Shown piece by piece: positions 2,962 to 46,734 of a stretch of 64,000 nt of DNA. Position numbers and translations under genes: made by a program. Numbering within the stretch: the stretch's first letter is position 1; each line of letters begins with the position of its first letter. The DNA is from Parcubacteria group bacterium (GTDB taxonomy: Bacteria; Patescibacteriota; Minisyncoccia; 2-02-FULL-40-12; IGHO2-01-FULL-4-A), in NCBI GenBank assembly GCA_043821485.1, contig JBDRCU010000037.1, forward strand, positions 28,746 through 92,745, written 5' to 3'. The notes beneath the pieces are model-generated. The model was not told the origin of the DNA and did not search any database. It worked only from the letters and a program-made list of their open reading frames with translations.

Positions 2962-3606
2962 TTAAAATTTTGTATTAAGAATCTTCTCTAAATCTGCAGG
3001 CTTAGCCGGACCTATTCGAAGGATGCGTGGTTTAATTTTTGAAAAATCAATTATGGTGGAAGGCGTGGACGAAGGCAATACTCCGGCATCTAATATCAGA
3101 TCGGGTTTCCACAATTGATCCTTGAATGATTCCAGTATCTTAGCTGGATCATCTGAACCTGCTTCTCCTGAAATATTAGCAGAAGTTACAGCAAGTGGAT
3201 AGCCGAATTTACCAAGAATTGAATCTATAAGAGGATAATCCGGAATACGGACAGCTACAGTTGGCTTTCCTTGCGTAACGTCATTGGGTATTATTGCTTT
3301 TTTTATAAGGACAACTGTTATTGGTCCGGGCCAAAGCTTATCCAAAACTGATTCAAGTTTCGGAGGAATAAAAGCAACTTCACGCAACCATTTCATATTA
3401 CGAACAAAAACTGGAAGAGGCTTAGTGCTAGACCTGCCTTTAATCTTATACAACTGCCTTGCCACATACGGATCGCATGCATTACATCCAAGCCCGTATA
3501 CTGTATCTGTTGGAAATACAACTGATCCGCCTTTCTTAAAGACATCAACAGCTGCGCGCACAGCATCAATATTATCTCCTTTTTGATTAAGTCGAATAAT
3601 TTTCAT
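2962..3606 (-). CDS. tsaC: L-threonylcarbamoyladenylate synthase (YrdC/Sua5 family, TsaC)
   Basis: The YrdC-domain motif FPTDTVYGLGCNA is present. The product is 214 aa. Confidence 0.85.
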   Translation of the reverse strand: MKIIRLNQKGDNIDAVRAAVDVFKKGGSVVFPTDTVYGLGCNACDPYVARQLYKIKGRSSTKPLPVFVRNMKWLREVAFIPPKLESVLDKLWPGPITVVLIKKAIIPNDVTQGKPTVAVRIPDYPLIDSILGKFGYPLAVTSANISGEAGSDDPAKILESFKDQLWKPDLILDAGVLPSSTPSTIIDFSKIKPRILRIGPAKPADLEKILNTKF

Positions 3607-3610
3607 AATA

Positions 3611-4618
3611 CTATTTCAATCCTGAGTCTGTCTCTATAGCAAGAGAGCTCAAACCTGCATTTATTAATCTTTTATTATATCCAGGTATTATACGTCCTTC
3701 AGGAGAAGACGGATGAAATTCAAGCTGGTTGTCATTGTACGTAATGCGTCCTTTATTCACAGACTTCTTATTTCCTGATTCAATTCTTCGTATTTGATAT
3801 GATCGTATATGCTTTTCTATAAATTTACCAATAGACAAATCCAAAATCCATTCAAATGTATTAGCAATCCAGCTTGGCTTAATATCTGTCATTTCTGTAT
3901 CCCATCTATATATATAATCCAGTAACCATCTGTTTTGTTCTTTAAACTCAATAACAATATCATCATTCAATGCCAGCATTGGAATAAGATTTGCATAGAG
4001 CTGTGCAGTATACATACTATGAAATGGAATATCCAAAGATTTATCAGTTATGAAATGATTTGCGCAAACTTTATCAGGCGCAATAAAATGTTTATTTGTG
4101 CGTCGCACTCCAAGACACGACAAAACAAATGATATCAAAAAACGCACTGTCCATATGTATCCTTTTCGCGTAATTACGAATATATCAAGGTCGCTCAATT
4201 CACTGGTATTACCCAAAGCAAGCGAACCAGAAGCAGAAATTGCTTTTACAAATGGCACGTGTCTCAACCACGAAACTGCATCCTTGGTTTTATCAATCTT
4301 ATCCCCTGCTAAGCGATACTTCTTTCTGCGAAGCGGGATAAGATATCTACGACCAAAGAGAAAATAGAAATTTCTGAATTTTGATACATTGCCTTGATTA
4401 ACAAGCCTATCAAGCGAATCTCTGACAGCATTCTCGCTAATATCTGATGGATCGTTATCTCCCCTGTTATTGCCACTCTCTGAATGCCTAATTTTCACCA
4501 AATATCTAAAAACCTCCCTTGCAGTCAAAGGCCAGTCCAAAGTGTCATAATATGCCAATGTTGCTATGATATTGTTTTCCACTATTGCAAGCCTAGCCGA
4601 AAACGTATCATTTAACAA
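3611..4618 (-). CDS. Polymerase-beta-superfamily nucleotidyltransferase domain protein (function unknown)
   Basis: The motif GSLALGNTSELSDLDIFVI fits the GS-x(n)-[DE]h[DE]h nucleotidyltransferase signature. The product is 335 aa. Confidence 0.55.
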   Translation of the reverse strand: MLNDTFSARLAIVENNIIATLAYYDTLDWPLTAREVFRYLVKIRHSESGNNRGDNDPSDISENAVRDSLDRLVNQGNVSKFRNFYFLFGRRYLIPLRRKKYRLAGDKIDKTKDAVSWLRHVPFVKAISASGSLALGNTSELSDLDIFVITRKGYIWTVRFLISFVLSCLGVRRTNKHFIAPDKVCANHFITDKSLDIPFHSMYTAQLYANLIPMLALNDDIVIEFKEQNRWLLDYIYRWDTEMTDIKPSWIANTFEWILDLSIGKFIEKHIRSYQIRRIESGNKKSVNKGRITYNDNQLEFHPSSPEGRIIPGYNKRLINAGLSSLAIETDSGLK

Positions 4619-4646
4619 TATCGTCTAATCCTGCTATAATATCTCT

Positions 4647-4985
4647 ATGTACGTTATTCGAATATTACTTGCAAACATTGTAGCAGTCTGGGTTGCCGAC
4701 TATTTTATAGACGGCTTTTGGGTTTCAGGAGACTTGAAAGAACTCCTCATTGCTGGTATCATCCTGGGGCTGATATTCCTGATCATAAAGCCTTTACTCA
4801 AGCTTGTTTCGCTCCCTTTGATCTGGATCACAGCAGGGCTATTCACCCTCGTAATATATGGCTTTCTCATCTGGGTTGTAGCTTATTTCATGTCCTCAAT
4901 GTCAGTGGCCCTATATATGCCACTGATCTGGGCGACTCTCATAATAGCGATAATCAATTACATAGCCAGAGGATTCAAACTCTAA
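4647..4985 (+). CDS. Small integral membrane protein, DUF360/YvlD-like (phage-holin family IV-like)
   Basis: The 112-aa product has 3-4 predicted TM helices. The GDLKELLIAGIILGLIFLIIKPLL pattern is typical of this family. Confidence 0.5.
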   Translation: MYVIRILLANIVAVWVADYFIDGFWVSGDLKELLIAGIILGLIFLIIKPLLKLVSLPLIWITAGLFTLVIYGFLIWVVAYFMSSMSVALYMPLIWATLIIAIINYIARGFKL

Positions 4986-4998
4986 GGCTTCAAAAAAT

Positions 4999-5217
4999 AT
5001 GGATGCATTTACGATTATTCAAACCTCCCTTGCTATCCTTTTGATAGTAACTATATTACTACAGCAAAAAGGCGCAGGCATGGGCGGTGCGATAGGAGGC
5101 GCTGGTTCAGAAGCAGGTTTTTCAACACGACGCGGTACAGAAAAAACGGTATTCACCGCAAGTATTATTATTGGTATTCTCTTTTTTGCTTTTTCTGTAA
5201 CTAGACTACTTCTATAG
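4999..5217 (+). CDS. secG: Preprotein translocase subunit SecG
   Basis: The 72-aa product has two TM segments joined by a Gly-rich loop, LLQQKGAGMGGAIGGAGSEAGFSTRRG. Confidence 0.7.
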   Translation: MDAFTIIQTSLAILLIVTILLQQKGAGMGGAIGGAGSEAGFSTRRGTEKTVFTASIIIGILFFAFSVTRLLL

Positions 5218-5262
5218 GTTCCTCTTTTGATATGCATAACTCCTAGTTACGCATTTTAATTT

Positions 5263-7101
5263 ATGTCTGCTTACGACTTCAAACAATTAGATAATTTTTT
5301 CACCGGTAAAAACAAAGATAAAATTATATCTGGGAAATTTCATTTCATAACAAAACACTTCCCTACCAAAAAACAATTCCTGTACTTACCGAAGGTTCTT
5401 TCCCAAAAAGAAAGATACGCACTGCTTGCATCCATACTCGTAGCAGTCATTGCACTAATAACAATTCCCGTATGTGCCTACTACCACTTTACAGAACCAA
5501 CTCCTACCCATGGGGGGTCTTTCACCGAAGGCATCCTTGGAGAACCGCAAAACATTAATCCTTTACTCATCAATACAAGAGAGGTAGACACCGATCTTGT
5601 CCGATTAATATATTCCGGATTAGTCAGACTAGATGACAAAGGAAACATCCATCCTGGATTGGCAGAATCCTATACCATTTCAGATAGCGGTCTTGAATAC
5701 ACCTTCAATCTTCGACAGGATGCATTATGGCATGACGGTACTCCTGTTACAGCTGATGATATAGTATTCACTATACTCACGGTGCAAAATCTCGATGTTG
5801 ACAGTCCTCAAAGACTCAATTGGCAAGGAGTGGACGTTGAAAAAATTGACGAACAAACAATCAAATTAACTCTAAAAAACCCTCTTGCCCAATTCATCTA
5901 TACAACAACCATGGGAATTCTCCCTAAGCATGTATGGGAATCTGTATCTGCAGAAAATTTCAAAAGCACGAATCTGAATATCGAAGCAATAGGCTCAGGC
6001 CCTTATCGAATTAATGATATCGGACGAGGTGGAGGAGGAAGTGTTACTTCTATGACATTATCTTCATTCAGAAACTACTATTTAGAAGGGCCGTATATAG
6101 CAAAAATAGAGTTACATTTTTTTACGTCGCTTGATGATATGATATCAGCATATAATTCTGGCAAGATAGATACGATCGAGTTGCCTCTGCAAAGACGTCT
6201 TAGCGATCTTAATATCTCACAAAGATCAAAGATACAAACCGTAGACCAACACAGCTATTTCACTGTATTCTTTAACGAAAACCAAAATGAGATCTTTGCC
6301 GAAGATGACATACGTCTGGCATTGAATTATGGTACAGATAAACAAGCCATAATTGATACAGAACTTCTAGGACATGGCAGTGTTGTGGATTCTCCCTTAC
6401 TCCCTAAAATAACTGGAATAGAAAAACCTGAAAATATTTATCCTTACGATCAATCCCTTGGAATACATCTCCTTGAAAAAAATAACTGGAATATTTCCGG
6501 AGACCAAAAGATTCGTGAAAGGCTGAACGAATCCACAGAAGACGTCGAACAACTTTCCATAAAGCTAACCACACTCAATATGCTTGGCCTGCCGGAAGTA
6601 GCAGGAGAACTCAAATCCCAATGGGAAGAACTGGGATTCTCCGTCACAATAGAAACTCTATCAATACCCGAAATTCAAAAAGTAATTCAAGAACGAGACT
6701 TTGAGGCATTCCTATTCGGTGAAGTTATCCCCCTTGGATTAAACCAATTCAGTTTCTGGCATTCATCACAATCTCGATCCCCCGGTCTGAATATAGCCCT
6801 CTATGACAATCCCAGCGTAGACAAACTTCTTGAAGAAGCTAGGAGAACCATGGACGAGGTTAAACGCCTTGAAAAATACAATGAAATACAAAATATAATT
6901 ATTGGGGACGCTCCCGTAGTATTCCTATACAGCCCCAAGTACCTGTATATACAGCCTTCTGCCATAAAAAATGGTGAAATAACAGTAATCAATACTTCTC
7001 CTGATAGATTCAATGATATCCATGAATGGTACATAGAAACCAAGCGCATAAGGCCTACGGCAGACAAAACAACCCCTACTCCATCTCAAGACTTGCAATA
7101 A
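5263..7101 (+). CDS. ABC transporter substrate-binding protein, family 5 (peptide/nickel, OppA/DppA-like), membrane anchored
   Basis: An N-terminal TM anchor is followed by a conserved SBP_bac_5-like N-lobe, ILGEPQNINPLL...YSGLVRLDDKGNIHPGLAESY...WHDGTPVTADDIVFT. Confidence 0.78.
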   Translation: MSAYDFKQLDNFFTGKNKDKIISGKFHFITKHFPTKKQFLYLPKVLSQKERYALLASILVAVIALITIPVCAYYHFTEPTPTHGGSFTEGILGEPQNINPLLINTREVDTDLVRLIYSGLVRLDDKGNIHPGLAESYTISDSGLEYTFNLRQDALWHDGTPVTADDIVFTILTVQNLDVDSPQRLNWQGVDVEKIDEQTIKLTLKNPLAQFIYTTTMGILPKHVWESVSAENFKSTNLNIEAIGSGPYRINDIGRGGGGSVTSMTLSSFRNYYLEGPYIAKIELHFFTSLDDMISAYNSGKIDTIELPLQRRLSDLNISQRSKIQTVDQHSYFTVFFNENQNEIFAEDDIRLALNYGTDKQAIIDTELLGHGSVVDSPLLPKITGIEKPENIYPYDQSLGIHLLEKNNWNISGDQKIRERLNESTEDVEQLSIKLTTLNMLGLPEVAGELKSQWEELGFSVTIETLSIPEIQKVIQERDFEAFLFGEVIPLGLNQFSFWHSSQSRSPGLNIALYDNPSVDKLLEEARRTMDEVKRLEKYNEIQNIIIGDAPVVFLYSPKYLYIQPSAIKNGEITVINTSPDRFNDIHEWYIETKRIRPTADKTTPTPSQDLQ

Positions 7102-9319: not shown

Positions 9320-9409
9320 AACGTAAGAAAATCTTGATATTTTCGTCATATTCTATACAATATATCCCCCTCTAAATAGCTAATGCTACAGGGAGGGAGA
9401 TATTTTATT

Positions 9410-11170
9410 ATGGGAAGATTTAAAAGACTAATCCCCTATATTTGGCCGCATATCAAGCGGTATCCATGGTCATTCTATCTGACCTTTATTGGCTATGGCA
9501 TAGGATGGGGCTTAACGGGACTCCTTGTCCCATTCATATATAAAGATATCGTTGATGTCATCTCTGGGGCGACTGACCCATCTTTGGTAGCAGACCCATT
9601 ACTCGGTCTGATTTTCAAGCTTCTTGTCATAATTGTTATCTACAACATACTCTTCCGCATATCAGATTGGAGTATTATACGTTTTCAAAGCAAGATCCAA
9701 CGCGATCTTATCTCATATCTATTTGAAGAACTAGGAAAACATTCCTATAAGTTTTTTGTTAATGAATTTGCAGGAAGTCTGGTGACAAAAATAAAACGAT
9801 TCATAAGAGCGCTGGACCGCATGCATGATCGTATAACTTTTGATTTCTGGAATGCGATTATACAGCTTGCTGGGATGTTTGTTATTTTGTTTTATGTCAA
9901 TACAATAATTGGAATAATATTTCTATCCTGGTCTATAATTTTTATTGTATTAACAATCCTAAGCGTTAAATATCGAATCAAATACGATCTTGCCGAAGCT
10001 AAGGAAGATTCAAAGATAACAGGACTTCTGGCTGACACGATAACAAACATTCTTAACATCAAAATGTTTGCTAAGAGTGACTACGAGAATACCAGATTCA
10101 GAGAAAGCGCAGAAATACAACACAAAGCCAGATATGCAGCCTGGAACTTCAATATGAAAATATATGCAGTGCAAGCTGTATTCATCGGAGCTCTTGAAAT
10201 TAGCGGGATGTTTGTAGCGATTAAACTCTGGCTGGCAGGATCTATATCCCTAGGTACGATTGTCCTCATTCAAAGCTACTTTGGAATAATCTTCAACCGT
10301 ACATGGAACCTTGGAAGAGCAATGTCCGAATTCAGCAAAGCCCTATCCGATGCTGATGAAATGATTGATATACTGGAAGAACCTATAGGGATTAAGGATC
10401 CTCTCAAACCTAAAAAAGTGAAAATCAAAGAAGGCAATATCTCTCTTGATGACATGACCTTCTGCTATGGCGAGAAAGGTGAAGATGTCTTCTCTAAGTT
10501 CAATTTGGATATTCCATCTGGTCAACACATAGGTATTATTGGCCATTCAGGATCGGGTAAAACGACCATAACTAAACTTCTTTTAAGATTCGCAGACATA
10601 CAAAAAGGCAGTATTAAGATTGACGGACAGGATATACGTCATATCACACAGGACGATCTTAGATCTGAGATTGCATACGTACCACAGGATCCGATACTAT
10701 TCCATCGAAGTCTTGAAGAAAATATTCGTTATGGAAATCTCAAGGCAACCGAAGAAGAAGTTATTGAAGTTGCTAAGAAAGCCCATGCACATGAATTCAT
10801 CTCTGCCCTACCGAAAGGATACAACACTTTGGTTGGCGAGCGCGGAATTAAATTATCTGGAGGAGAACGCCAGCGTGTTGCAATTGCACGAGCCATGTTA
10901 AAAAACACCCCAATCTTAATCCTAGACGAAGCAACAAGCTCGCTTGATGCAGTTAGTGAAAAATTGATTCAGGAAGCATTCAAAGAATTAATGAAAAACC
11001 GCACAACTATAGTCATTGCTCACAGACTCTCAACTATCCAGAAATTGGACAGGATTATCGTACTTGAAGACGGAATTATAGAAGAAGAAGGCACGCATAA
11101 CGAACTTATTAAAAAAGAAGGTATCTACCACAATTATTGGACTCACCAAGCAGGAGGGTTCATAGAATAA
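9410..11170 (+). CDS. ABC transporter ATP-binding/permease fusion (exporter, MsbA-like)
   Basis: A 6-TM domain is followed by Walker A GHSGSGKTT, the signature LSGGERQRVAIARA and a Walker B-like ILILDEATSSLD motif. The start is chosen at the ATG at 9410, which follows a GGGAGGGAG Shine-Dalgarno site. Confidence 0.9.
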   Translation: MGRFKRLIPYIWPHIKRYPWSFYLTFIGYGIGWGLTGLLVPFIYKDIVDVISGATDPSLVADPLLGLIFKLLVIIVIYNILFRISDWSIIRFQSKIQRDLISYLFEELGKHSYKFFVNEFAGSLVTKIKRFIRALDRMHDRITFDFWNAIIQLAGMFVILFYVNTIIGIIFLSWSIIFIVLTILSVKYRIKYDLAEAKEDSKITGLLADTITNILNIKMFAKSDYENTRFRESAEIQHKARYAAWNFNMKIYAVQAVFIGALEISGMFVAIKLWLAGSISLGTIVLIQSYFGIIFNRTWNLGRAMSEFSKALSDADEMIDILEEPIGIKDPLKPKKVKIKEGNISLDDMTFCYGEKGEDVFSKFNLDIPSGQHIGIIGHSGSGKTTITKLLLRFADIQKGSIKIDGQDIRHITQDDLRSEIAYVPQDPILFHRSLEENIRYGNLKATEEEVIEVAKKAHAHEFISALPKGYNTLVGERGIKLSGGERQRVAIARAMLKNTPILILDEATSSLDAVSEKLIQEAFKELMKNRTTIVIAHRLSTIQKLDRIIVLEDGIIEEEGTHNELIKKEGIYHNYWTHQAGGFIE

Positions 11171-11174
11171 GCTT

Positions 11175-11219
11175 GCAAAATAAAACGCAAAACGGGCTGG
11201 TCCCCATGGACCGGCCCGT
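11175..11219 (-). terminator. Rho-independent terminator for the minus-strand gene at 11273..11671
   Basis: A GC-rich imperfect hairpin, ACGGGCTGGTCC-CCAT-GGACCGGCCCGT, is followed on the minus strand by a T-rich tract (TTTTGCGTTTTATTTTG). Confidence 0.6.
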
Positions 11220-11272
11220 CGCAAGAACATTTGAAAGTATATTATTACCTCCTACTGAATCCAGTACTACTT

Positions 11273-11671
11273 CTATGGAGGCAGGATATCCAATAAAACA
11301 TCCTGAGCCAAGGGGCCTGATACTCTGACAGCATGACCAGTCCTGATCGGCTGACCTTCGGGAGATTTCACCATATCGTATGGCGAGATTTTCATCTGGA
11401 CTCGACAGGTCTCGTCTCCCAGAAGGATCTCCACGCAAATAGCGCCCTTCGATTCCCTGACTTCAAGGGTAAGGTTGCGCTCCCCGGACCCAAAGCCTGC
11501 ACTATGAAGCTCTAGGCCCTGACCCACGATTCGCACAGGAACCACGACTCTGGAGCACCCCTTAATGATACCTGTGACGGACTCTTTTCTCTCTCCTCCT
11601 CCCCCGTCGAAAGTACGTACTTCCGGCTCCTTGGGCCCTTTTGTGATGACGCTCTTCCTTGCTTCAGTCAT
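11273..11671 (-). CDS. Hypothetical protein (132 aa) in GC-rich island A, with a possible small beta-barrel/OB-like fold
   Basis: The ATG is at 11671 (MTEARKSV...), 6 nt downstream of a GGAGG Shine-Dalgarno site, and the gene has its own terminator. GC content is far above background. The longer in-frame upstream extension would overlap trpS and lacks a Shine-Dalgarno site. Confidence 0.55.
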   Translation of the reverse strand: MTEARKSVITKGPKEPEVRTFDGGGGERKESVTGIIKGCSRVVVPVRIVGQGLELHSAGFGSGERNLTLEVRESKGAICVEILLGDETCRVQMKISPYDMVKSPEGQPIRTGHAVRVSGPLAQDVLLDILPP

Positions 11672-11758
11672 GGCTTTCCCTCCACATCTCTGATATACAG
11701 AGCATACTACATAGTTACAATTCTCGGATATATCGTCAATATCTGCTATAATCAAAAT

Positions 11759-12736
11759 ATGAAAATATTCTCTGGTATACGGCCTTCGGGCAAGCTCCAT
11801 CTAGGAAACTATCTTGGAGCAGTAAAAAATTGGATCGAACTGCAAGACAAACCTGATACAAAACAGGTTATTTATGCTGTTGTTGATTATCATGGTATTA
11901 CCACTCCATTTGCTCCGGCGACCTATCATGAACAAATCACAGACGCAATCCTTGATTATCTTGCTGCTGGCGTGGATCCAACTAAATCCTTAATTATCAG
12001 ACAATCCAAGGTACCCGCTCATACAGAACTTGCATGGATATTTAATACAATTACGCCCATAAGCTGGCTTGAACGTTTGCCAACCTACAAAGAGAAGCTG
12101 GAACAAACTCATGGCAAATACAATCATCTTGGCTTACTCTCCTATCCAGTTCTCATGGCTTCCGACATATTAATATACATGTCAGATGCAGTTCCCGTTG
12201 GAGACGATCAAAAAGCCCACATCGATATTACGAATGAAATCGGCAAGAAGTTCAATTCAATGTTTGGCGAAACATTTCCTGCAGTAAAGATGCTTCGTAC
12301 AAAAGGAGAACGCATTAAATCTCTCCAAGATGCAGATAAAAAAATGTCTAAAACCGGAGATGAAAGTATAGCCTTAACAGATGACCCAGATACAGTTGCA
12401 AAAAAGATCAAAAAAGCAGTCACTGATTCCGGAAGTAAGATTACATTTGACGAAAAAAAGAAGCCAGCAATATCAAATTTGCTGACTATCTATCACCTGC
12501 TCACGGATAAACCAATATCATCCATCGAATCCGAATACGAAGGCAAAACATATGCTGATTTTAAAAATGATCTTGCAGAAGCAACAATAGAATTTATAAA
12601 ACCATTTCAGGAGAAACGTAAAGAATTCGAAAACAATATGGATGAAGTTCGTAAAATTATGACAGACTCAGAGGAAAAGGCTAATGAAATAGCAAACAAA
12701 AATCTAGCTCACATCAAAGAAAAGATAGGATTGTAG
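11759..12736 (+). CDS. trpS: Tryptophan--tRNA ligase
   Basis: The N-terminus is MKIFSGIRPSGKLHLGNYLGA (HIGH-type region), and there is a KMSKT (KMSKS) motif. Confidence 0.92.
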   Translation: MKIFSGIRPSGKLHLGNYLGAVKNWIELQDKPDTKQVIYAVVDYHGITTPFAPATYHEQITDAILDYLAAGVDPTKSLIIRQSKVPAHTELAWIFNTITPISWLERLPTYKEKLEQTHGKYNHLGLLSYPVLMASDILIYMSDAVPVGDDQKAHIDITNEIGKKFNSMFGETFPAVKMLRTKGERIKSLQDADKKMSKTGDESIALTDDPDTVAKKIKKAVTDSGSKITFDEKKKPAISNLLTIYHLLTDKPISSIESEYEGKTYADFKNDLAEATIEFIKPFQEKRKEFENNMDEVRKIMTDSEEKANEIANKNLAHIKEKIGL

Positions 12737-12887
12737 ACATAATACCAGACAACATATACATATTCTGTCAAGGTTTACTGTTTATACAAAGTATGGTTAA
12801 ATAAAGATAGAATCATATATTCATAAAAATGAGACAGAAAACTGTCTTATTTGTAGTACCTTAACAGTGAGTTTGTTTCAGTTTGTT

Positions 12888-12933
12888 GGATGGGATTCAT
12901 AGTTCGCATGTGTGTGGATTATGAATCCCATCC
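12888..12933. repeat. Perfect 13-bp inverted repeat (GGATGGGATTCAT ... ATGAATCCCATCC) with a 20-nt spacer
   Basis: Read directly from the sequence. The repeat lies about 70 nt upstream of the lipoprotein gene in island B. Confidence 0.6.
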
Positions 12934-13001
12934 GACGCAATTCTGTAGCGGATGAAGAAGGGACTCGGCCATTGCGGCTAGAGCCCAGAAGGAGACAGAC
13001 G

Positions 13002-13496
13002 ATGAAGTACAAGCTTCTCGTATCCGTGTTCGCGCTCCTGGCGGCTTCGCTACTGATGGCTGGGTGCGGTGGCAGTGGACCGACTAACTCCCTGGTCCAG
13101 CAGACCGTGCAGTCGGTCAGGATCGTAATGCCTGTTGACAGGGCGACGAGCCAAGAATCTCCGCCCGGACTGAGGAGCAACGGCTACACAAGCTTCTTGG
13201 TGGAAACAAAGGGTCATACCAACAGCCCGACTCTTCAGGCTTTCTTCGAGGAATGGTCTGCTATCGAAGGGGAGCCTCTATCTCTGACAGCGCACTTCAA
13301 AGACCTCGAGATACAGAACAACACACCTTCCCCCTCCGCGAACTGGAAGGTTATACCCCCGCAAGATTGGCCCAAAGCGACGCTCACCCGGCTATACATC
13401 TCGGTTCAACCTAAAGATCCCCGGACTGGCGATGGAGTAGGCGGAGATTACATCTGGGTCTATATCAACGGGCTCCCCACTGATCCGGCTGGCTAA
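13002..13496 (+). CDS. Putative lipoprotein (164 aa) in GC-rich island B
   Basis: The product starts MKYKLLVSVFALLAASLLMAGC, a signal peptide with an LMAGC lipobox. The RBS context is AAGGAGACAGACGATG. GC content is high. Confidence 0.65.
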   Translation: MKYKLLVSVFALLAASLLMAGCGGSGPTNSLVQQTVQSVRIVMPVDRATSQESPPGLRSNGYTSFLVETKGHTNSPTLQAFFEEWSAIEGEPLSLTAHFKDLEIQNNTPSPSANWKVIPPQDWPKATLTRLYISVQPKDPRTGDGVGGDYIWVYINGLPTDPAG

Positions 13497-13521
13497 CAAA
13501 ACCGAAACAAACTCCGAACCG

Positions 13522-13568
13522 ACGGACCGTCACCATCCTATCCTATATGGTGGCAACGGTCCGTTTTT
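13522..13568 (+). terminator. Rho-independent terminator after the island-B lipoprotein
   Basis: The hairpin ACGGACCGTCACCAT...ATGGTG..ACGGTCCGT is followed by TTTTT. Confidence 0.65.
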
Positions 13569-20150: not shown

Positions 20151-20160
20151 AAAGAGGAAA

Positions 20161-20195
20161 GCTCGCAGAGGAGCATTCCTACCACTCCTGCGAGC
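20161..20195. terminator. Stem-loop (GCTCGCAGAGGAG...CTCCTGCGAGC) immediately after ychF, probably a bidirectional terminator
   Basis: The inverted repeat was read directly. On the minus strand it is followed by a T-rich tract, so it would serve the minus-strand island-C gene. Confidence 0.5.
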
Positions 20196-20225
20196 AAGGA
20201 AAGAACAATAATAGGATACTGATTT

Positions 20226-20477
20226 CTACCTTCTTTCTACCGGCTCCACGGATTTCACCGTCCGCGACAAGAAGGACTTTTTCCTGTTGTCGATTTCGAC
20301 CTGCAGACTTTCTGAATTTGTCATACGGGGATTCAGTTCGTCAGGCACTTCGATCGCGACCAGTTCGCGTGAACTGAACGGACTTTCTTCGCCCTCTGTA
20401 ATCGGCCTACATCCTACCTTCCTGAGTTCTTCAGGAAAATCACTAGGAGCAATCGGATGCAACGTAACCCTATACAT
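20226..20477 (-). CDS. Small hypothetical protein (83 aa) in GC-rich island C
   Basis: The ATG follows a GAGGAGGGGATCAGA Shine-Dalgarno context. The product starts MYRVTLHPIAPSDFPEELRK. A hairpin lies downstream. Confidence 0.45.
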   Translation of the reverse strand: MYRVTLHPIAPSDFPEELRKVGCRPITEGEESPFSSRELVAIEVPDELNPRMTNSESLQVEIDNRKKSFLSRTVKSVEPVERR

Positions 20478-20551
20478 TCTGATCCCCTCCTCTCAACTCT
20501 TTGATAACGGATCCCTCAGAAAAGAAACTATCCTATTATCTCAAACGTCCT

Positions 20552-20586
20552 CCAAAAACGCAAGAAGCCCCGGGGGAGGGCTTCTT
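20552..20586 (-). terminator. Rho-independent terminator between the two island-C genes
   Basis: On the minus strand the hairpin AAGAAGCCC-loop-GGGCTTCTT is followed by GCGTTTTT. Confidence 0.55.
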
Positions 20587-20619
20587 GGCCTTCCTCCTCC
20601 GGAGCTACTGGAACTGGAC

Positions 20620-20886
20620 TCAGATCTTCGTGGAAGTCCTGAGCTTTGGGGGAATCTTGTCTAATCCCTTCTTGGGAACCGAGTACAAAGGTGGTACCTT
20701 CTTACAACCCTTAATTCGTATCACGGGTTTCAGTCCTGCGAACGCTCCTCTCGGCTCTGCTTCTCCTCTTGCTTTCCCCAAAGCAATTGCTGAAGCCTCG
20801 GCAGAAGAAAAACCCTCCTGACGAACCTTGCGATTTTCCCCTCCTATGGAGAGGGTAACTTCAAAAATCCCCGAGGAATGACTCAT
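20620..20886 (-). CDS. Small hypothetical protein (88 aa) in GC-rich island C
   Basis: The start is taken at the second ATG (MSHSSGIFEVTLSIGG...), which follows a GGGAGGA Shine-Dalgarno site with 8-nt spacing. The product is a small, possibly alpha/beta protein with a Lys/Pro-rich C-terminal tail. Confidence 0.45.
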   Translation of the reverse strand: MSHSSGIFEVTLSIGGENRKVRQEGFSSAEASAIALGKARGEAEPRGAFAGLKPVIRIKGCKKVPPLYSVPKKGLDKIPPKLRTSTKI

Positions 20887-20958
20887 GATGCCTGATCCTC
20901 CCATTCGGTAGATATCTCAATTATTCCATAAAAAAAAGATCCCGTCTTTCCACAGGTG

Positions 20959-23057: not shown

Positions 23058-23220
23058 ATTTAAATTATACCTTAAAAACCTGATAAAAAGGAGCTAATAT
23101 TAGACCATGCTTGTGCTGTCTTGACAATGTATATTAGAAGTGATATATATAGATTATCGTGAACAACGTATTAATCTCCTTCTAACTCCTGGCTCGTCTG
23201 AGCTGGGGAAAGGAACAGAG

Positions 23221-23346
23221 ATGCATCGTAACAAGGATCGGGGCCTACGAGCCCCCAAGAATAAGAGGACATTGAACCACAGTTTCAACCACATCGGCAC
23301 CGCCAACATCGCCACCGACGCCAGCGCCGGCCACCTGTCCGGCTGA
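23221..23346 (+). CDS. Candidate micro-ORF (41 aa) in GC-rich island D
   Basis: ATG preceded by AAAGGAACAGAG. The peptide is MHRNKDRGLRAPKNKRTLNHSFNHIGTANIATDASAGHLSG. A second 11-codon ORF, MHPRPQIRGPP, starts at about 23,388 with an AGAAGGAGACGACG-ATG context. Coding status is uncertain. Confidence 0.3.
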   Translation: MHRNKDRGLRAPKNKRTLNHSFNHIGTANIATDASAGHLSG

Positions 23347-23432
23347 GACAGCAGCCGCGCACGGCAGAAGGAGACGACGATGCACCCGCGACCGCAGATC
23401 AGGGGTCCCCCGTAGGATCCCACGTTCTCCCC

Positions 23433-23467
23433 GGGGCCGCCCCAGAAAGGCGGCCCTTTCACTTTTA
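23433..23467 (+). terminator. Rho-independent terminator (GGGGCCGCC-CCAGAAA-GGCGGCCC then TTTCACTTTT)
   Basis: The hairpin and T tract were read directly. The element is oriented for the plus strand at the end of island D. Confidence 0.55.
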
Positions 23468-24442
23468 GATAACCTCCACTTCCACCAACGGCCATTCACT
23501 AGTTTCGTCTTTCTTCAATATCCCGTCTTTAGCGCCAAACTTTGATACAACAGAAGAAGCGTTTGCAACAGCAAACTGTATAGCTTTAGTAATATCTTCA
23601 CTTCTCATATATTCTGCAACAAAACCAGAAGCAAAGGCGTCCCCTGCCCCTGTACGTTCTTCTATGGGTGAATCCGGAATCCCTGCTTTGTATTTTTTGC
23701 CTTCTTTATCTATAACAAGCACGCCCTCTATTCCTCCACTGACTGATACAATCCCTCCAACTATCTCATGTAGCTTGGATGCAATACCATCCCAGTCTTC
23801 TCTTTTTATTCCTGTTAATTGAGATCCTTCTTCCCTATTGCATGTAAATATATCCATATCGCCTGCAACTTTGAGTAATGCATCCGGACCATCCTTGAAC
23901 ATACTTCCTGTTGTATTGATTGCTAATTTAATTCCCTTGCTTTTCGCATGCTCAACAAGCTTATACATAACATCCCAATTATTCCCTACTGAACCCAGAT
24001 ACAACCACTTAGCATCTATCTTATCCAAATCAATTTTATTAACATCAAAATGCTGTGCCTCTCCTTTATAATTAAGGATCGTTCTACTTCCAGATGAATG
24101 CACCAGAATCACTGAATACGATGTTATATTATCATCATGCTTTTGTATTAAACTCGTATCAACTCCTTCATTCTCTAATACCTCGATAATCTCTTTACCG
24201 TCCTTATCCGCACCTATTATACAAATACTTGCAACATTGTGTCCTTGCCTTGCAAAAGTCACTGCTGAATTTGTTCCTCCTCCGCCAGTCGAGAATACAA
24301 TCTTATCTATATCAATCTTTGAACCAAGCGGGAAACACTCTATCTCCCCTGTTGGAGAATCTTCGCTTTTTGCAATAATAAAGCTATCATCTTCCATGAA
24401 AACATCTTTTGTTGCTGATCCTATTGTTATTACGTCAAACAT
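23465..24442 (-). CDS. PfkB-family carbohydrate kinase (ribokinase-like)
   Basis: The N-terminus is MFDVITIGSATKDVF. The GG motif STGGGGTNSA and the anion-hole motif GAGDAFASGF are present. Confidence 0.85.
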   Translation of the reverse strand: MFDVITIGSATKDVFMEDDSFIIAKSEDSPTGEIECFPLGSKIDIDKIVFSTGGGGTNSAVTFARQGHNVASICIIGADKDGKEIIEVLENEGVDTSLIQKHDDNITSYSVILVHSSGSRTILNYKGEAQHFDVNKIDLDKIDAKWLYLGSVGNNWDVMYKLVEHAKSKGIKLAINTTGSMFKDGPDALLKVAGDMDIFTCNREEGSQLTGIKREDWDGIASKLHEIVGGIVSVSGGIEGVLVIDKEGKKYKAGIPDSPIEERTGAGDAFASGFVAEYMRSEDITKAIQFAVANASSVVSKFGAKDGILKKDETSEWPLVEVEVI

Positions 24443-25537: not shown

Positions 25538-26526
25538 GACTCTAGTTTATTCAAATATGAGACTGCTGACAATAGGGCTGTTGTTCCTTGCCCAACTGCT
25601 ATAGCTATTTGATTATATGGAATGTTTGTAACATCTCCTGCAGCATAAAGCCCTGACACATTGGTCTCACCCGCCATATTTACAATAATTTGTTTAAAAT
25701 TGTCTTTTTCTGTATCTTCTGGCACTAAATCAGAATTAGGAATCATTCCTATGTGAACAAATATACCCTCAACATCGAGTGTCTGCTCAATGCCTGCTTC
25801 GTCGGTATATTTAAGCCCTGTGACAAAGTCAGTTCCCATAATTTCAGTAGTCTTTGCACTGTATATGACTGTTACATTTTTCTTTGATCTTAAATTATTA
25901 ATCAACATCTGATCTCCTTTAAACTTTGGATTTTTATTAATCACATAAACTTTCTCTGCGATTCCCGAAAGCATAAGCCCTGATTCAAGCGCGGAATTAC
26001 CTCCACCAACTGTTGCTACAGTTTTACCGGTAAATAGCGGACCATCGCAGGTCGTGCAATAACTAACTCCTTTATTTCTAAACTCTTTTTCACCAGGCAT
26101 TCCAAGCTGACGCGGATGTACGCCAGTTGCTACAATAACTGTCTTAGCAAGATAACCACATTTAGGCGCACCGTTAGTCGCCGGATCAATACGTTCAGAA
26201 GCCATCTTTGATTCTTTGCCTTTGCCTGGAGTTATACAGAACAATCCATCTTCTTGCTTGACTATATGAGCTACTTCAACACCTTCTTCAATATCGACAT
26301 TGTAATGTCTAAGGTGTTCCTTAAATTTCATAGTCAACTCAACACCGTCGATCTTCGTAAAACCGGGATAATTTCCTATCTCTCCTGATACTACTACTTC
26401 TCCTCCAAAATCTTTTGTAATTATTTTAAAGTTAAGACCCCGTCTTGCGGCGTATATTCCTGCAGCTGTTGCAGCTGCCGATCCTCCGACAATAAGGAGG
26501 TCTAGAGGTTTACTATTTTGATCCAT
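25534..26526 (-). CDS. trxB: Thioredoxin reductase-like FAD/NAD(P)-binding disulfide oxidoreductase
   Basis: A GxGxxA FAD-binding motif LIVGGSAAATAAGIYAARRG is present. A redox-active CTTCDG motif is present. A GG motif precedes a second Rossmann fold. Confidence 0.8.
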   Translation of the reverse strand: MDQNSKPLDLLIVGGSAAATAAGIYAARRGLNFKIITKDFGGEVVVSGEIGNYPGFTKIDGVELTMKFKEHLRHYNVDIEEGVEVAHIVKQEDGLFCITPGKGKESKMASERIDPATNGAPKCGYLAKTVIVATGVHPRQLGMPGEKEFRNKGVSYCTTCDGPLFTGKTVATVGGGNSALESGLMLSGIAEKVYVINKNPKFKGDQMLINNLRSKKNVTVIYSAKTTEIMGTDFVTGLKYTDEAGIEQTLDVEGIFVHIGMIPNSDLVPEDTEKDNFKQIIVNMAGETNVSGLYAAGDVTNIPYNQIAIAVGQGTTALLSAVSYLNKLES

Positions 26527-29568: not shown

Positions 29569-30108
29569 CTATCCCTGGAAGGTTTCAGTTGCCGCGCCAT
29601 TGGCATTGGGCCAGCGGCGCTTGAAAAGTATCGGAACGAGGATCCTGACGGGGACCTTATGTAAGGCACCCTCCAGCCACAGGATTACCTTGAGTCCTGG
29701 GAAGAAGTGATTCAGACGCTCACAGCAAGTCTGACACAAGTTGGCGACATGGATATCTCCAGTCTGCTTCTTTCTGTGAACTGTCACCAACGTTACCGGT
29801 TTCCCGTTCCTCTTAGCAGCACAGTGCATGAGCCCCACTTCGGCACAGCTCGAGGACTGACCTATGGGAGTATCGAGTTGGAGACCATCGAACTCATTGC
29901 CCTGGCTGTCGACGCTAAGCGCGTACAGCTGGTGAAAGCCATGCTGGTAATATCCCTCCAGTGCAGCCTTGGCCCGTTCGACAAGTCTCTCATCTTCCCT
30001 GGTCATCGGCTCTTCAAACTTCAGAATCATCTGGACGTGTGCACTGTGGCATATCGTTTCCAGCTTTTGCCACTCTTCTTGGTCTGGTTTGTCGGGTTTC
30101 TCGCCCAT
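29569..30108 (-). CDS. Cytidine/deoxycytidylate deaminase-fold protein (tetrameric CDA / blasticidin-S deaminase-like) in GC-rich island E
   Basis: Zinc ligand motifs SCAEV (CxE) and CQTCC (CxxC) are present. Their spacing, and the flanking pattern AKAAL..Y..GFHQLYAL...G......TP, match the homotetrameric cytidine deaminase pattern. The ATG at 30108 follows an AAGGGAG Shine-Dalgarno site. Confidence 0.7.
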   Translation of the reverse strand: MGEKPDKPDQEEWQKLETICHSAHVQMILKFEEPMTREDERLVERAKAALEGYYQHGFHQLYALSVDSQGNEFDGLQLDTPIGQSSSCAEVGLMHCAAKRNGKPVTLVTVHRKKQTGDIHVANLCQTCCERLNHFFPGLKVILWLEGALHKVPVRILVPILFKRRWPNANGAATETFQG

Positions 30109-30188
30109 CGGGTTCTCCCTTCTTCTAAATCCTGAGTTCCACGACAATAACAGACTATGATTTAAATGTCAAATCTACTTAATTCTAT

Positions 30189-33196: not shown

Positions 33197-34020
33197 ATGA
33201 TGATGCCAGTGTTCTTTGTTCATTAGCATATGTCTCCAGGAGTGGATACTACAAATGGTTACGAACTGCGGATCTGCCGGACAAGGACTATCCTGATTAT
33301 TTAAAAATCAAGAAGGTATTTGACAAAGGTAAGGGCAAATACGGCTGGAGAGCGATTAAAATGAGGATTCCAGCGATGAATCACAAGAAGATACAGCGGA
33401 TCATGAGGAAGTATGAATTGGTTGCCAAAGTGAGGAAAAGAAACCCATACAAGGCAATCATGAAAGAACGACTAGAACACAGGATATTCCCCAACAAACT
33501 CCAGAGAGAGTTTAATCAGACAATACCTCGCACCGTATTTTGCACCGACATCACCTATCTGCCGTTTAATCAACGGTTTGCCTACCTCTCAGTGGTAAAG
33601 GATGTTGCGACCGGTGAGGTGGTGGCATGGAGTGTGTCATCCGGTCTTGAGATGACACTGGTAACAGAAACAATCGAACAAATGGAGCCATGTGAAAATG
33701 CGCTGATCCATTCCGACCAAGGGTTCCACTACACCAATCCGTTGTTCATTGAGAACGTAAAGGAGCTCAGAATGAACCAATCAATGTCTGGTAAAGGAAA
33801 CTGCATAGACAATGCACCGATTGAATCCTTTTTTGGCCACATGAAAGACGAGCTGGATTACAAATCCTGCACATCTTTAGAAGAATTGCGTTTGAGAATT
33901 GAAGAATATATGAGATACTACAATTACGAAAGAAAGCAGTGGACAAGGAACAAGATGGCTCCGATTGAGTACAGAGATCATCTTTTGGCTCAATCAGAGG
34001 GGCAGGTGGTGTGTTCCTAA
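33118..34020 (+). CDS. IS3-family transposase OrfB (DDE integrase core), expressed by -1 frameshift from orfA
   Basis: The -1 frame is open from about 33,106. A candidate slippery heptamer T_TTT_TTA lies at 33,118-33,124. The product carries the rve-domain motifs HSDQGFHYT and MSGKGNCIDNAPIESFF. The first in-frame ATG is at 33,361. Confidence 0.78.
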   Translation, partial: FFSQTPGQKSGVKLRPCEKYRIIKELNDDASVLCSLAYVSRSGYYKWLRTADLPDKDYPDYLKIKKVFDKGKGKYGWRAIKMRIPAMNHKKIQRIMRKYELVAKVRKRNPYKAIMKERLEHRIFPNKLQREFNQTIPRTVFCTDITYLPFNQRFAYLSVVKDVATGEVVAWSVSSGLEMTLVTETIEQMEPCENALIHSDQGFHYTNPLFIENVKELRMNQSMSGKGNCIDNAPIESFFGHMKDELDYKSCTSLEELRLRIEEYMRYYNYERKQWTRNKMAPIEYRDHLLAQSEGQVVCS

Positions 34021-45724: not shown

Positions 45725-46387
45725 ATGCGTTACGCGGGCCTATTCCTGTTGGTGGTCGCCATCATGGCGACCCTCACAATCAACTCCGAACCCGCCTTCG
45801 CCGGAGACCTGTTCGACAGGATCCTTAGCGAGGGCTTGGCTGGCACCGATCGAGACCACGTCGTCACGACTGCCCGCCAGACGATCCGCGAGGACAGCGA
45901 CATCCGTGACCCCGGAACAACTGGAAGCATCTACGAAGGGGTCGACATCACAAACAAGGTACTTGGAAATCCTTACGGTGGCGGGGGAACCAAGGGAACG
46001 CTAACCCGCCTAGGTGGAGCTGGACTGTTCTACTTCCTGGACAGTACGGGTCGCATTCGACATCCGAGTCATACACGTCAATCGGCGGATGTCGTCAAGC
46101 AGATCGAAGCCAAACCCGATACCGTGACCCGACCGACACCGGACCCAAGCATGGAGTGGTCTCTCAACAACGTGACGACCGACAAAACCATGGTCGTCTA
46201 CTACCAGAACGAGATGCTCTTCGTGCTCAACGGCGGAGAGTCGAACTTCCATGCGATTCCTCTGAGCTGGAACTCCACCCGCTTCAGGGCGGAGATCCTG
46301 GAACAGGATCCATCGACTGGCGCCCTTGTTCGCAGTGCTGCGACCAGAACGGCCACCGGAAGCTACGGCTTCAACTTCTCCGACTAG
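45725..46387 (+). CDS. Hypothetical secreted protein (220 aa) in GC-rich island F
   Basis: A signal peptide MRYAGLFLLVVAIMATLTINSEPAFAG is present. The RBS context is GAGGAGAAAGGTC. GC content is high. Confidence 0.6.
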   Translation: MRYAGLFLLVVAIMATLTINSEPAFAGDLFDRILSEGLAGTDRDHVVTTARQTIREDSDIRDPGTTGSIYEGVDITNKVLGNPYGGGGTKGTLTRLGGAGLFYFLDSTGRIRHPSHTRQSADVVKQIEAKPDTVTRPTPDPSMEWSLNNVTTDKTMVVYYQNEMLFVLNGGESNFHAIPLSWNSTRFRAEILEQDPSTGALVRSAATRTATGSYGFNFSD

Positions 46388-46462: not shown

Positions 46463-46694
46463 ATAAAACCCTTGACTTACCTAGGTCATTCTAATACACT
46501 GTATGGGTACTATGAATTAACACAAAACATACATCTTCATAGCATTTATGAAGGCTCGGGATTGTCCCTCAATGGGATGGTCCCGAGTCTTTAATGACAG
46601 AACATTAACAACTTTACAGCCAACGATACGTATATTCGTATCGTTAACTAGATCAATGAAAGATAGTTTGAGTAAATCTCAACTATTCTTATAA

Positions 46695-46734
<40 letters not shown>

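What the first reader, a model, noticed from the sequence alone, without database searches (positions are those of the whole stretch)
11170..11720. Island A: GC-rich 132-aa protein with a possible OB/IF1-like segment
The minus-strand ORF (ATG 11671, SD GGAGG) is wedged between an ABC exporter and trpS, with a dedicated terminator at 11175-11219. The sequence ...ICVEILLGDETCRVQMKISPYDMVK... weakly resembles the conserved ...[23 protein letters not shown]... segment of IF1/S1-like OB folds. The rest (Gly-rich GGGGERKE; GFGSGERN) is unassignable. It is a compositional outlier like the other islands.
Basis: inference. Interest (0 to 1): 0.5.

Follow-up and report, generated by a model that had tools for sequence, protein, structure and literature searches.

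The report
Orphan GC-rich gene, not IF1
This is a small, well-formed but completely orphan protein gene, probably picked up from a GC-richer source and dropped into a variable spot of an AT-rich Parcubacteria genome; its resemblance to translation factor IF1 is a short local match that no test supports as homology.

Summary
The description holds. A 132-codon minus-strand ORF (11273-11671) follows a GGAGG Shine-Dalgarno (SD) site 7 nt before the ATG and precedes a strong intrinsic terminator (11177-11219). It lies between an ABC exporter and trpS and has 53.6% GC in a 39.7% GC window. ORF length, SD site, period-3 signal and GC enrichment confined to the CDS favour a real coding gene. Local RNA-fold z-scores are near 0 and Rfam finds nothing, so a structured RNA or trpS leader is unlikely.

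The protein has no homologue: only itself among 5.8 bn clusters and 1.84 bn representatives, and nothing in metagenome, viral, phage, plasmid, Pfam, NCBIfam, PHROGs, PADLOC or PDB searches. The IF1 resemblance is real but tiny: 23 columns, a score reached by 3 of 2000 shuffles in a one-to-one test, and 6.4 bits against an IF1 mini-profile. AlphaFold2 gives pLDDT 34-39, so the fold is undetermined.

More than 25 Yanofskybacteria-like relatives keep RNase J-trpS-PGM synteny, often with RNase J abutting trpS. The exporter and this gene therefore sit in a plasticity hotspot. Host genes are mostly SD-less or leaderless, whereas islands A, B and F carry strong SD sites.

Verdict: a horizontally acquired orphan accessory gene of unknown function. 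Low interest.

The parts
11273..11671 (-). CDS of the orphan 132-aa protein (14.1 kDa, pI 7.7). It has no signal peptide and no transmembrane segment. A Lys/Glu/Gly-rich N-terminal stretch of about 32 residues precedes a beta-rich domain of about 100 residues.
   Evidence: Translation. ORF-length shuffles. GC1/2/3 = 0.61/0.46/0.55 and the best codon score in this frame. One stop in this frame against 3-10 in the others, and a period-3 signal of 2.75. Composition. Strands in the low-confidence AlphaFold2 models.
11679..11683 (-). Shine-Dalgarno GGAGG, 7 nt upstream of ATG 11671.
   Evidence: Sequence. SD-like motifs are rare before native genes here, 5 of 55. The host 16S keeps the anti-SD GGATCACCTCCTT at 49048-49060.
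11177..11219 (-). Intrinsic terminator: a 12-position GC-rich stem with one mismatch, loop ATGG, then a T-rich tract. The T-tract is present only on the minus strand, so it serves this gene.
   Evidence: Sequence. Terminator scan. Local fold z-scores of -3.4 to -4.6 for windows that contain it.
11672..11758 (.). AT-rich (35.6% GC) divergent intergenic region shared with trpS. On the + strand, a perfect TATAAT at 11747-11752 ends 6 nt before the trpS ATG, which suggests a leaderless trpS. On the - strand, a candidate promoter is TTGTAA (11720-11715), 17 nt, TATATC (11697-11692); this is inferred only.
   Evidence: Sequence. GC. The consensus scan found no canonical minus-strand promoter here.
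11220..11272 (-). AT-rich (30% GC) 3' untranslated spacer between the stop codon and the terminator. It holds a second AGGAGG (11252) with no usable start codon at SD distance.
9383..11170 (+). Convergent neighbour: an ABC exporter (fused transmembrane and ATPase domains). Like island A, it is absent from the RNase J-trpS junction of most relatives.
   Evidence: Pfam. Synteny.
11759..12736 (+). Divergent neighbour: trpS, a conserved core gene that anchors the synteny.
   Evidence: Pfam. 70 related loci.

Best explanation
Island A is a genuine, monocistronic, protein-coding orphan gene of foreign origin. It sits in a genome-plasticity hotspot between RNase J and trpS in a Yanofskybacteria-like Parcubacteria (CPR) genome.

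Shown:
- A 132-codon ORF whose GC enrichment (53.6%, GC3 0.55 against a host GC3 of 0.32) starts and stops with the CDS.
- A GGAGG SD site at ideal spacing, in a genome whose own genes are mostly SD-less or leaderless.
- A dedicated Rho-independent terminator.
- Absence of the gene from the same junction in relatives.
- No detectable homologue in any database searched.

Inferred:
- The gene came by horizontal transfer from an SD-using, GC-richer gene pool. The same pool probably supplied the window's other GC-rich single-gene units and an IS3-type transposase.
- It is transcribed from the short divergent intergenic region, translated through the SD site, and terminated at its own hairpin.
- Its product is a soluble cytoplasmic 14-kDa protein with a disordered charged N-terminal tail and a beta-rich domain of about 100 residues.
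- The product most likely acts by binding a partner rather than by catalysis, as a dispensable accessory factor. No catalytic or metal-binding motif is recognisable.

Its specific function cannot be assigned. It is not a detectable member of the IF1/S1 OB family.
For: Coding:
- ORF length beats shuffles: 10 of 5000 for at least 175 open codons, 28 of 5000 for an ATG-ORF of at least 132.
- This frame has 1 stop against 3-10 in the others, and a period-3 signal of 2.75. Islands C and D, which have no convincing ORF, give 0.8 and 1.6.
- GC1>GC3>GC2, and this frame scores best on codon usage.
- SD site and terminator are present.
- GC steps coincide with the start and stop codons.

Foreign origin:
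- Synonymous codon usage favours the pooled usage of the other islands by +17 bits. Host genes score -60 to -93 bits per 130 codons on the same test.
- SD-like motifs precede only 5 of 55 native-like genes, and 16 of 55 have TATAAT directly before the start. Islands A, B and F all have strong SD sites.
- Another GC3-rich ORF is an rve transposase.
- Orphan genes normally match the host's GC (PMC11293555, abstract).
- Horizontal transfer of single genes and islands is common in Patescibacteria (PMC12455944, abstract).

Hotspot:
- More than 25 relatives keep RNase J and trpS next to each other, and 16 of them also show PGM beyond trpS. In several of them RNase J directly abuts trpS.
- Where a gap exists, it holds unrelated cargo.
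- Six-frame phmmer of A against all 70 loci finds nothing.

Orphan status.

Not RNA: Rfam finds nothing at gathering score or at E<=10, and local z-scores across the ORF body are about 0.
Against: - There is no homologue, so there is no evidence of purifying selection and no covariation or conservation test of any kind.
- No expression data are available.
- The period-3 signal is weak compared with host genes (2.75 against 11-14, although the gene is short).
- No mobility gene, flanking repeat or target-site duplication marks the insertion.
- The donor is unknown.
- The partner-binding accessory role is inference from the absence of motifs, not a positive result.
- AlphaFold2 could not fold the protein. 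That is expected for a single sequence, but it is also what a non-protein ORF would give.
Confidence: 0.65

Rival explanations
1. One reading: the C-terminal part is an IF1/S1-like (or other, for example TOBE-like) OB-fold, so the protein binds RNA, the ribosome or a small ligand.
For: - The local match to IF1 is better than chance in a one-to-one test: SW score 44 is reached by 3 of 2000 shuffles.
- Against an IF1 mini-profile, A ranks 2nd of 2001 sequences (A plus 2000 shuffles).
- The low-confidence AlphaFold2 models place a beta-hairpin, a short helix at PYDMV and a further strand there. From memory, this is the local topology of IF1 beta4, 3-10 helix and beta5.
- BLASTP also aligned KGAICVEILLG with a ModE Mop/TOBE strand, but at E = 9.7.
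Against: - Only 19-23 residues match.
- The mini-profile score is 6.4 bits.
- BLASTP against IF1 gives E = 2.7.
- No Pfam family (including eIF-1a, S1 and TOBE) appears for the whole protein or its sub-domains at E<=10.
- No PDB chain appears at E<=10.
- Foldseek gives no OB fold among the 50 best matches listed and nothing below E = 1.
- The protein is about twice the size of IF1, is not conserved in relatives, and sits in a variable hotspot.
Confidence: 0.07
2. It is not a functional gene. The region is a stretch of foreign GC-rich DNA, or a decaying remnant, that carries an open frame which is not translated or makes a product of no use.
For: - There is no homologue among about 15 billion proteins.
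- Codon usage is far from the host's.
- The period-3 signal is weak.
- AlphaFold2 gives no confident fold.
- Neighbouring islands C and D are GC-rich without convincing ORFs.
Against: - The open frame is too long for its composition, p about 0.002-0.006.
- GGAGG lies exactly 7 nt before the ATG, in a genome that rarely has SD sites.
- The terminator follows directly after the ORF.
- The GC-rich stretch coincides with the ORF boundaries.
- Island E, which has the same style, has two homologues of about 50% identity that are still intact ORFs.
Confidence: 0.2
3. The region is a structured non-coding RNA, or a cis-regulatory leader of trpS such as a T-box on the + strand, and the ORF is incidental.
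For: - The whole 551-nt minus strand folds with z = -3.15.
- GC-rich islands in AT-rich genomes are often RNA genes.
- From general knowledge, trpS is T-box regulated in some phyla.
Against: - The z-score comes from the terminator hairpin. Windows across the ORF body have z between -0.5 and +0.5, apart from one window at -2.1.
- The + strand has z = -1.42.
- Rfam finds nothing at gathering score, and only three sub-threshold matches (E 0.8-2.5, 11-16 bits against gathering scores of 40-50) at E<=10, with no T-box.
- trpS has TATAAT 6 nt before its ATG, which suggests a leaderless gene.
- In several relatives RNase J abuts trpS with no leader.
Confidence: 0.03

Closest known systems
Translation initiation factor IF1 / S1-like OB fold (Pfam eIF-1a PF01176, S1 PF00575)
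   Same: A local motif of about 20 residues, (I/V)(L)xGD...V...(S/T)PYD(L/M)xK. It aligns with IF1 beta4-beta5 better than shuffled sequence does. The protein is small, soluble and beta-rich.
   Different: - There is no profile-level match.
- The match covers about a quarter of the IF1 domain.
- The protein is 132 aa with an extra N-terminal half.
- It is not conserved in any relative.
- It lies in a variable hotspot rather than a conserved translation-gene context.
- The fold is not established.
Lineage-specific orphan ('cloud') genes in small genomic islets acquired by horizontal transfer
   Same: - No homologues.
- Atypical GC and codon usage.
- Absent from the syntenic site of relatives.
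- Located at a junction that carries different cargo in different lineages.
- Horizontal transfer of single genes is documented in Patescibacteria (PMC12455944).
   Different: - No integrase, repeat or tRNA marks the site.
- The GC shift is +14 points upward, whereas most prokaryotic orphans match the host's GC and virus-like ones are lower (PMC11293555, abstract).
- The GC shift is confined to the CDS.
Phage 'morons': single accessory genes with their own promoter and terminator and deviating composition (concept recalled from the lambdoid-phage literature, not checked here)
   Same: A one-gene transcription unit bracketed by its own expression signals, with deviating base composition, inserted between conserved genes.
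   Different: There is no prophage context around island A. There is no match to PHROGs, phage genomes or IMG/VR contigs.

Membership tests
IF1 / S1-like OB fold | Significant match to the family sequence profile (Pfam eIF-1a or S1) or to solved IF1 chains | tested here: not met
   - No Pfam family at E<=1 for the whole protein, nor at E<=10 for two C-terminal sub-domain segments and the 175-aa extended frame.
- No PDB chain at E<=10.
- BLASTP against E. coli IF1 gives E = 2.7.
IF1 / S1-like OB fold | Five-stranded OB beta-barrel | tested here: inconclusive
   AlphaFold2 single-sequence models have pLDDT 34.0 (full length) and 38.8 (residues 33-132). Foldseek against PDB finds nothing below E = 1 and no OB protein among the 50 best matches listed.
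IF1 / S1-like OB fold | Conserved across related genomes, as expected for a translation factor | tested here: not met
   There is no relative in 70 loci from related and other genomes. There is none in 5.8 bn clusters or 1.84 bn representatives.
TOBE / Mop OB domain (my own lead) | Match to the TOBE profile or to a Mop-domain protein | tested here: not met
   No Pfam hit at E<=10.
T-box or other cis-regulatory leader of trpS / structured ncRNA | Match to an Rfam covariance model, or folding stability above background | tested here: not met
   - Rfam at gathering score and at E<=10 gives no meaningful hit.
- Local z-scores are about 0 outside the terminator.
- trpS appears leaderless.
- Several relatives lack any leader.
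Horizontally acquired genomic islet / orphan accessory gene | Base composition and codon usage deviate from the host | tested here: met
   - CDS GC is 53.6% against 39.7% for the window.
- GC3 is 0.55 against 0.32.
- Synonymous usage scores +17 bits, against -60 to -93 bits for host genes.
Horizontally acquired genomic islet / orphan accessory gene | Absent from the orthologous position in related genomes | tested here: met
   More than 25 relatives keep RNase J next to trpS, and 16 of them also show PGM beyond trpS. None carries A, and the gap cargo differs between lineages.
Horizontally acquired genomic islet / orphan accessory gene | Mobility signatures (integrase, flanking direct or inverted repeats, tRNA target) | tested here: not met
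   No significant repeats flank A. The islands share no sequence with each other. No tRNA lies nearby. The nearest transposase ORF is at 33361-34020.
Horizontally acquired genomic islet / orphan accessory gene | Identifiable donor lineage | tested here: not met
   No homologue exists in any collection searched.

The most novel reading that the evidence does not exclude
Island A would be one member of a distinct class of GC-rich, SD-led, single-gene transcription units. Islands A, B, E and F belong to it, and possibly others. Each carries its own expression signals, and the GC enrichment is confined to the CDS. They are scattered through an AT-rich CPR genome whose own genes are mostly leaderless or SD-less.

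The class would reflect a separate, largely unsampled mobile gene pool (host-derived, phage-borne or otherwise) that keeps its composition after transfer. Island E supports this: its two homologues of about 50% identity are also GC-rich inside AT-rich, non-homologous flanks. On this reading, A would encode a protein family, and perhaps a fold, not yet represented anywhere.
Probability: 0.15. Interest if true: 0.5.

Novelty: new member of a known kind. Interest (0 to 1): 0.2.

Why it matters
In itself it matters little. It is one more hypothetical orphan protein in a candidate-phyla genome, and the IF1-like idea that made it attractive does not hold up.

Its value is as a clean example of a foreign gene. 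It has a GC-rich CDS, a strong SD site and its own terminator, and it sits in a genome whose native genes are AT-rich and largely leaderless.

If the set of such units in this genome shares an origin, it could show where episymbiotic CPR bacteria obtain new genes, and how such genes are expressed against a different translation-initiation background.

Tried and rejected
- Structured RNA or T-box leader. Rfam at gathering score and at E<=10, whole-region folds and sliding-window z-scores show that only the terminator is structured. Rejected.
- Homology searches. These were the k-mer/HMMER search of 5.8 bn clusters, full HMMER against 1.84 bn representatives, JGI metagenome and IMG/VR scans, tblastn and blastn against phages and plasmids, and six-frame phmmer against 70 related loci. 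They returned only the protein itself. The three extra HMMER hits (P0002-P0004) are long tandem-repeat proteins whose scores are summed over many repeats. Rejected as artefacts.
- Family libraries. Pfam, NCBIfam, PHROGs and PADLOC and PDB sequences gave nothing.
- IF1 homology. Tested with BLASTP, Smith-Waterman with shuffles, and a mini-HMM. There is a short local match only.
- TOBE/Mop lead of my own. Nothing significant.
- Structure. AlphaFold2 on the full length and on residues 33-132 plus Foldseek against PDB were uninformative.
- Relatedness between islands A-F at DNA or protein level. None found.
- Flanking repeats around A. None meaningful.
- The look-up of encoding contigs for the annotated 160-aa product. 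Not on record.
- Literature search for Yanofskybacteria, horizontal transfer and GC content. No papers found.
Full report
OBSERVATION. GGAGG lies at 11683-11679, 7 nt before the ATG. Downstream, after a 53-nt AT-rich spacer, comes a 12-position GC-rich hairpin (11219-11192, one mismatch, loop ATGG). It is followed by TTTTGCGTTTTATTTT down to 11177. The T-tract exists only on the minus strand, so the terminator serves this ORF.

The neighbours are as described. An ABC_membrane + ABC_tran exporter lies at 9383-11170 (+) and is convergent. A class I Trp/Tyr tRNA synthetase, trpS, lies at 11759-12736 (+) and is divergent. The window averages 39.7% GC, and 11276-11700 is one of six stretches of about 375-850 bases that stay at or above 50% GC.

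The open frame continues upstream to 11800 (175 codons). The public record annotates a 160-aa product ('hypothetical protein ABH833_02280, Parcubacteria group bacterium'), which implies a TTG start at about 11755. That extension is AT-rich native intergenic sequence overlapping the trpS promoter and start. ATG 11671 is the better start.

CODING GENE OR NOT.
- In 5000 dinucleotide-preserving shuffles of 11220-11800, an open frame of at least 175 codons arose 10 times and an ATG-ORF of at least 132 codons arose 28 times.
- The reading frame has one stop, and the other five frames have 3-10.
- GC by codon position is 0.61/0.46/0.55. Of the six frames, this one scores best against host codon usage.
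- The period-3 signal is 2.75. Islands C and D, which have no convincing ORF, give 0.8 and 1.6. The coding islands B, E and F give 3.1-9.8.
- GC enrichment begins and ends with the CDS. The CDS has 53.6% GC, the upstream intergenic region 35.6%, and the spacer between stop and terminator 30%.

Together with the SD site and the terminator, this makes a translated gene the best reading.

The RNA alternative fails. Rfam finds only 16S rRNA and tRNAs in the window at gathering score, and only three sub-threshold matches (E 0.8-2.5) in 11000-11900 at E<=10. The whole-region z-score of -3.15 on the minus strand comes from the terminator. In 150-nt windows across the ORF body, z lies between -0.5 and +0.5, with one window at -2.1, while the terminator windows reach -3.4 to -4.6. 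A T-box or other trpS leader on the plus strand is also excluded. The plus strand has z = -1.42, and trpS has a perfect TATAAT ending 6 nt before its ATG. In several relatives RNase J abuts trpS within about 20 nt.

HOMOLOGUES. None was found.
- The word-indexed HMMER search of 5.8 billion clusters returned only the protein itself.
- The exhaustive phmmer search of 1.84 billion representatives returned the protein itself plus three long tandem-repeat proteins: a 2460-aa protein of tandem ~90-residue repeats, a 769-aa protein with WD40-like 'VRIWD' repeats, and a 994-aa protein of tandem ~65-residue repeats. Their scores sum many sub-threshold repeats, so they are artefacts.
- Scans of JGI metagenome contigs and IMG/VR found nothing.
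- tblastn and blastn against phage and plasmid collections found nothing.
- Pfam, NCBIfam, PHROGs and PADLOC gave no family.
- phmmer against all PDB chains gave nothing at E<=10.

THE IF1 RESEMBLANCE. Smith-Waterman (BLOSUM62, gap penalties 11/1) aligns VEILLGDETCRVQMKISPYDMVK with E. coli IF1 [20 protein letters not shown] at score 44, which 3 of 2000 shuffles reach. That ranks second among A plus 2000 shuffles.

This is a one-to-one p of about 1e-3 for a 20-residue stretch. A reader who implicitly compares against thousands of remembered families will find such matches by chance. Nothing at profile level supports it: BLASTP gives E = 2.7, and Pfam eIF-1a/S1 and PDB give nothing. My own alternative lead, a TOBE/Mop-type OB, also gave nothing.

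AlphaFold2 without an alignment gave pLDDT 34.0 (full length) and 38.8 (residues 33-132), showing only a handful of strands. Foldseek against PDB found no match below E = 1 and no OB protein among the 50 best matches listed. The fold is undetermined, and membership of the IF1/S1 family is not supported.

CONTEXT.
- Relatives. The trpS protein recovered 70 loci. The closest are Yanofskybacteria-like Parcubacteria MAGs at 56-70% identity.
- Synteny. In more than 25 of them RNase J and trpS are adjacent, and in 16 of these a reverse-strand phosphoglucomutase/phosphomannomutase follows trpS. In several, RNase J ends within about 20 nt of trpS and the mutase starts right after it.
- This window. 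It has the ABC exporter and island A inserted on one side of trpS. On the other side it has island B and a 449-aa surface-type protein.
- Gap cargo. Where relatives have a gap between RNase J and trpS, it holds unrelated cargo: an EamA-like membrane protein, HExxH proteins, other small hypothetical proteins and, once, a 53%-identical ABC exporter. None resembles A.

The site is therefore a plasticity hotspot, and A is lineage-specific.

ORIGIN.
- A's synonymous codon usage fits the pooled usage of islands B, E and F better than the host's by 17 bits. Host genes score -60 to -93 bits per 130 codons on the same test.
- Of 55 native-like ORFs, only 5 have an SD-like motif at the (longest-ORF) start. 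Sixteen have a TATAAT-like hexamer directly before the start codon, which is the signature of leaderless mRNAs. Some start calls may be wrong.
- Islands A, B and F all carry strong SD sites (GGAGG, AGGAG, GAGGAG) at proper spacing.
- The host can use them. Its 16S rRNA keeps GGATCACCTCCTT at 49048-49060, beyond an insertion of about 900 nt.
- Another GC3-rich ORF (33361-34020) is an IS3-type rve transposase, which shows that GC-richer mobile DNA does enter this genome.
- Large surveys find that prokaryotic orphans normally match their host's GC content (PMC11293555, abstract). A +14-point excess therefore argues for import rather than native birth.
- Transfer of single genes and islands is frequent in Patescibacteria (PMC12455944, abstract).
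- No mobility signature marks A itself, and the donor is unknown.

WHAT IT PROBABLY DOES. The product is 14.1 kDa with pI 7.7. It has no hydrophobic N-terminus or membrane segment, as read directly from the sequence. The first 32 or so residues (…KGPKEPEVRTFDGGGGERKE…) are charged and Gly-rich and are probably disordered. The rest is rich in Val, Ile, Gly and Arg and is predicted as strands. There is no CxxC, HExxH, P-loop or other recognisable catalytic or metal motif, again read from the sequence.

My best inference, at low confidence, is a soluble stand-alone beta-domain protein that works by binding a partner, as a dispensable accessory factor. Its expression is inferred as follows. Transcription starts in the 87-nt divergent intergenic region, where a candidate promoter is TTGTAA-17-TATATC at 11720-11692. 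Translation is SD-dependent. Termination occurs at the hairpin at 11177-11219. Everything beyond 'expressed small protein of foreign origin' is inference.

RIVALS.
- Non-functional foreign DNA carrying an untranslated ORF: about 0.2.
- IF1/S1- or TOBE-like OB protein: about 0.07.
- Structured RNA or trpS leader: about 0.03.

VERDICT. The IF1/OB interpretation is not supported. The feature is an ordinary, if tidy, horizontally acquired orphan gene: a new member of a known kind, of low interest (0.2). The more interesting thread is the class it belongs to, namely GC-rich, SD-led single-gene units in a leaderless AT-rich CPR genome. I give that reading about 15%, with moderate interest if it proves true.

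Noticed in passing
window 46689-49063: The 16S rRNA gene is interrupted near its 3' end, after about 48115. The insertion is about 900 nt long. It carries a LAGLIDADG homing-endonuclease ORF (48215-48859, Pfam E = 6e-43) and a weak group-I-intron match (48758-49008, E = 9e-4). The true 3' end, with the anti-SD GGATCACCTCCTT, lies at 49048-49060. The Rfam 16S hit ending at 48143 is therefore mis-terminated.
   Followed up: partly
window, all genes (e.g. 11747-11761, 1607-1621, 25538-25550, 48203-48217): Native genes almost never have a Shine-Dalgarno motif: 5 of 55 at the longest-ORF starts. Many have a perfect TATAAT ending 6-7 nt before the ATG, which suggests widespread leaderless mRNAs. The GC-rich island genes A, B and F have strong SD sites instead.
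   Followed up: partly
window 29569-30147 (-), island E; loci L071 187-792 and L072 275-796: - Island E encodes a 179-192-aa protein with a sub-threshold cytidine-deaminase match (NCBIfam 1e-12, below the cut-off).
- It has only two homologues (48-51% identity), both on short Logan contigs.
- In both contigs the CDS is again GC-rich (about 52-68% in 100-nt windows) inside flanks of 31-43% GC.
- Those flanks are not homologous to this window.
- The GC-rich state therefore appears to travel with the gene.
   Followed up: partly
window 45725-46387 (+), island F: A 220-aa protein with a hydrophobic, signal-peptide-like N-terminus and GC3 of 0.71. It has its own TTGACT-17-TATAAT promoter, a GAGGAG SD site and a strong terminator, and it lies immediately upstream of the 16S rRNA gene. 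It is a complete orphan: only itself among 5.8 bn clusters.
   Followed up: partly
window 12869-13564, island B: - A lipoprotein-like ORF (MKYKLL…LMAGCGGSG, start 13002).
- It has an AGGAGA SD site and a terminator hairpin at 13522-13564.
- The unit is bracketed by a 16-nt inverted repeat (12869-12884 / 13499-13514, 94% complementary).
- A 24-nt hairpin lies at 12885-12936.
- It is absent from the trpS-PGM junction of the relatives.
   Followed up: no
window 20151-20958 (island C) and 23120-23560 (island D): - These are GC-rich intergenic stretches; D reaches 71% GC.
- Neither has a convincing ORF. Period-3 signals are 0.8 and 1.6, and C has only overlapping short ORFs.
- Neither has an Rfam match at E<=1.
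- C folds with z = -3.7 (+) and -2.4 (-). D folds with z between -1.0 and -1.4.
- C could be an undescribed structured RNA.
   Followed up: partly
window 33361-34020 (+) and 4647-4985 (+): Two further ORFs have raised GC3 (0.54 and 0.50). The first is an IS3-type transposase fragment (rve/rve_2/rve_3, HTH_21). The second is a holin-like four-TM protein (Phage_holin_4_2).
   Followed up: no
loci L001-L035 (upstream of trpS, about 3000-6000 in locus coordinates): The RNase J-trpS junction is a variable hotspot across Yanofskybacteria-like genomes. It ranges from an 18-nt gap to about 2.9 kb. The inserts are unrelated small genes: a recurrent reverse-strand protein of about 180 aa with an 'FASEEG' motif in L004, L007 and L009, HExxH proteins in L006 and L017, EamA-like proteins in L023 and L028, and Cys-rich repeat ORFs in L024, L025 and L027.
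   Followed up: partly
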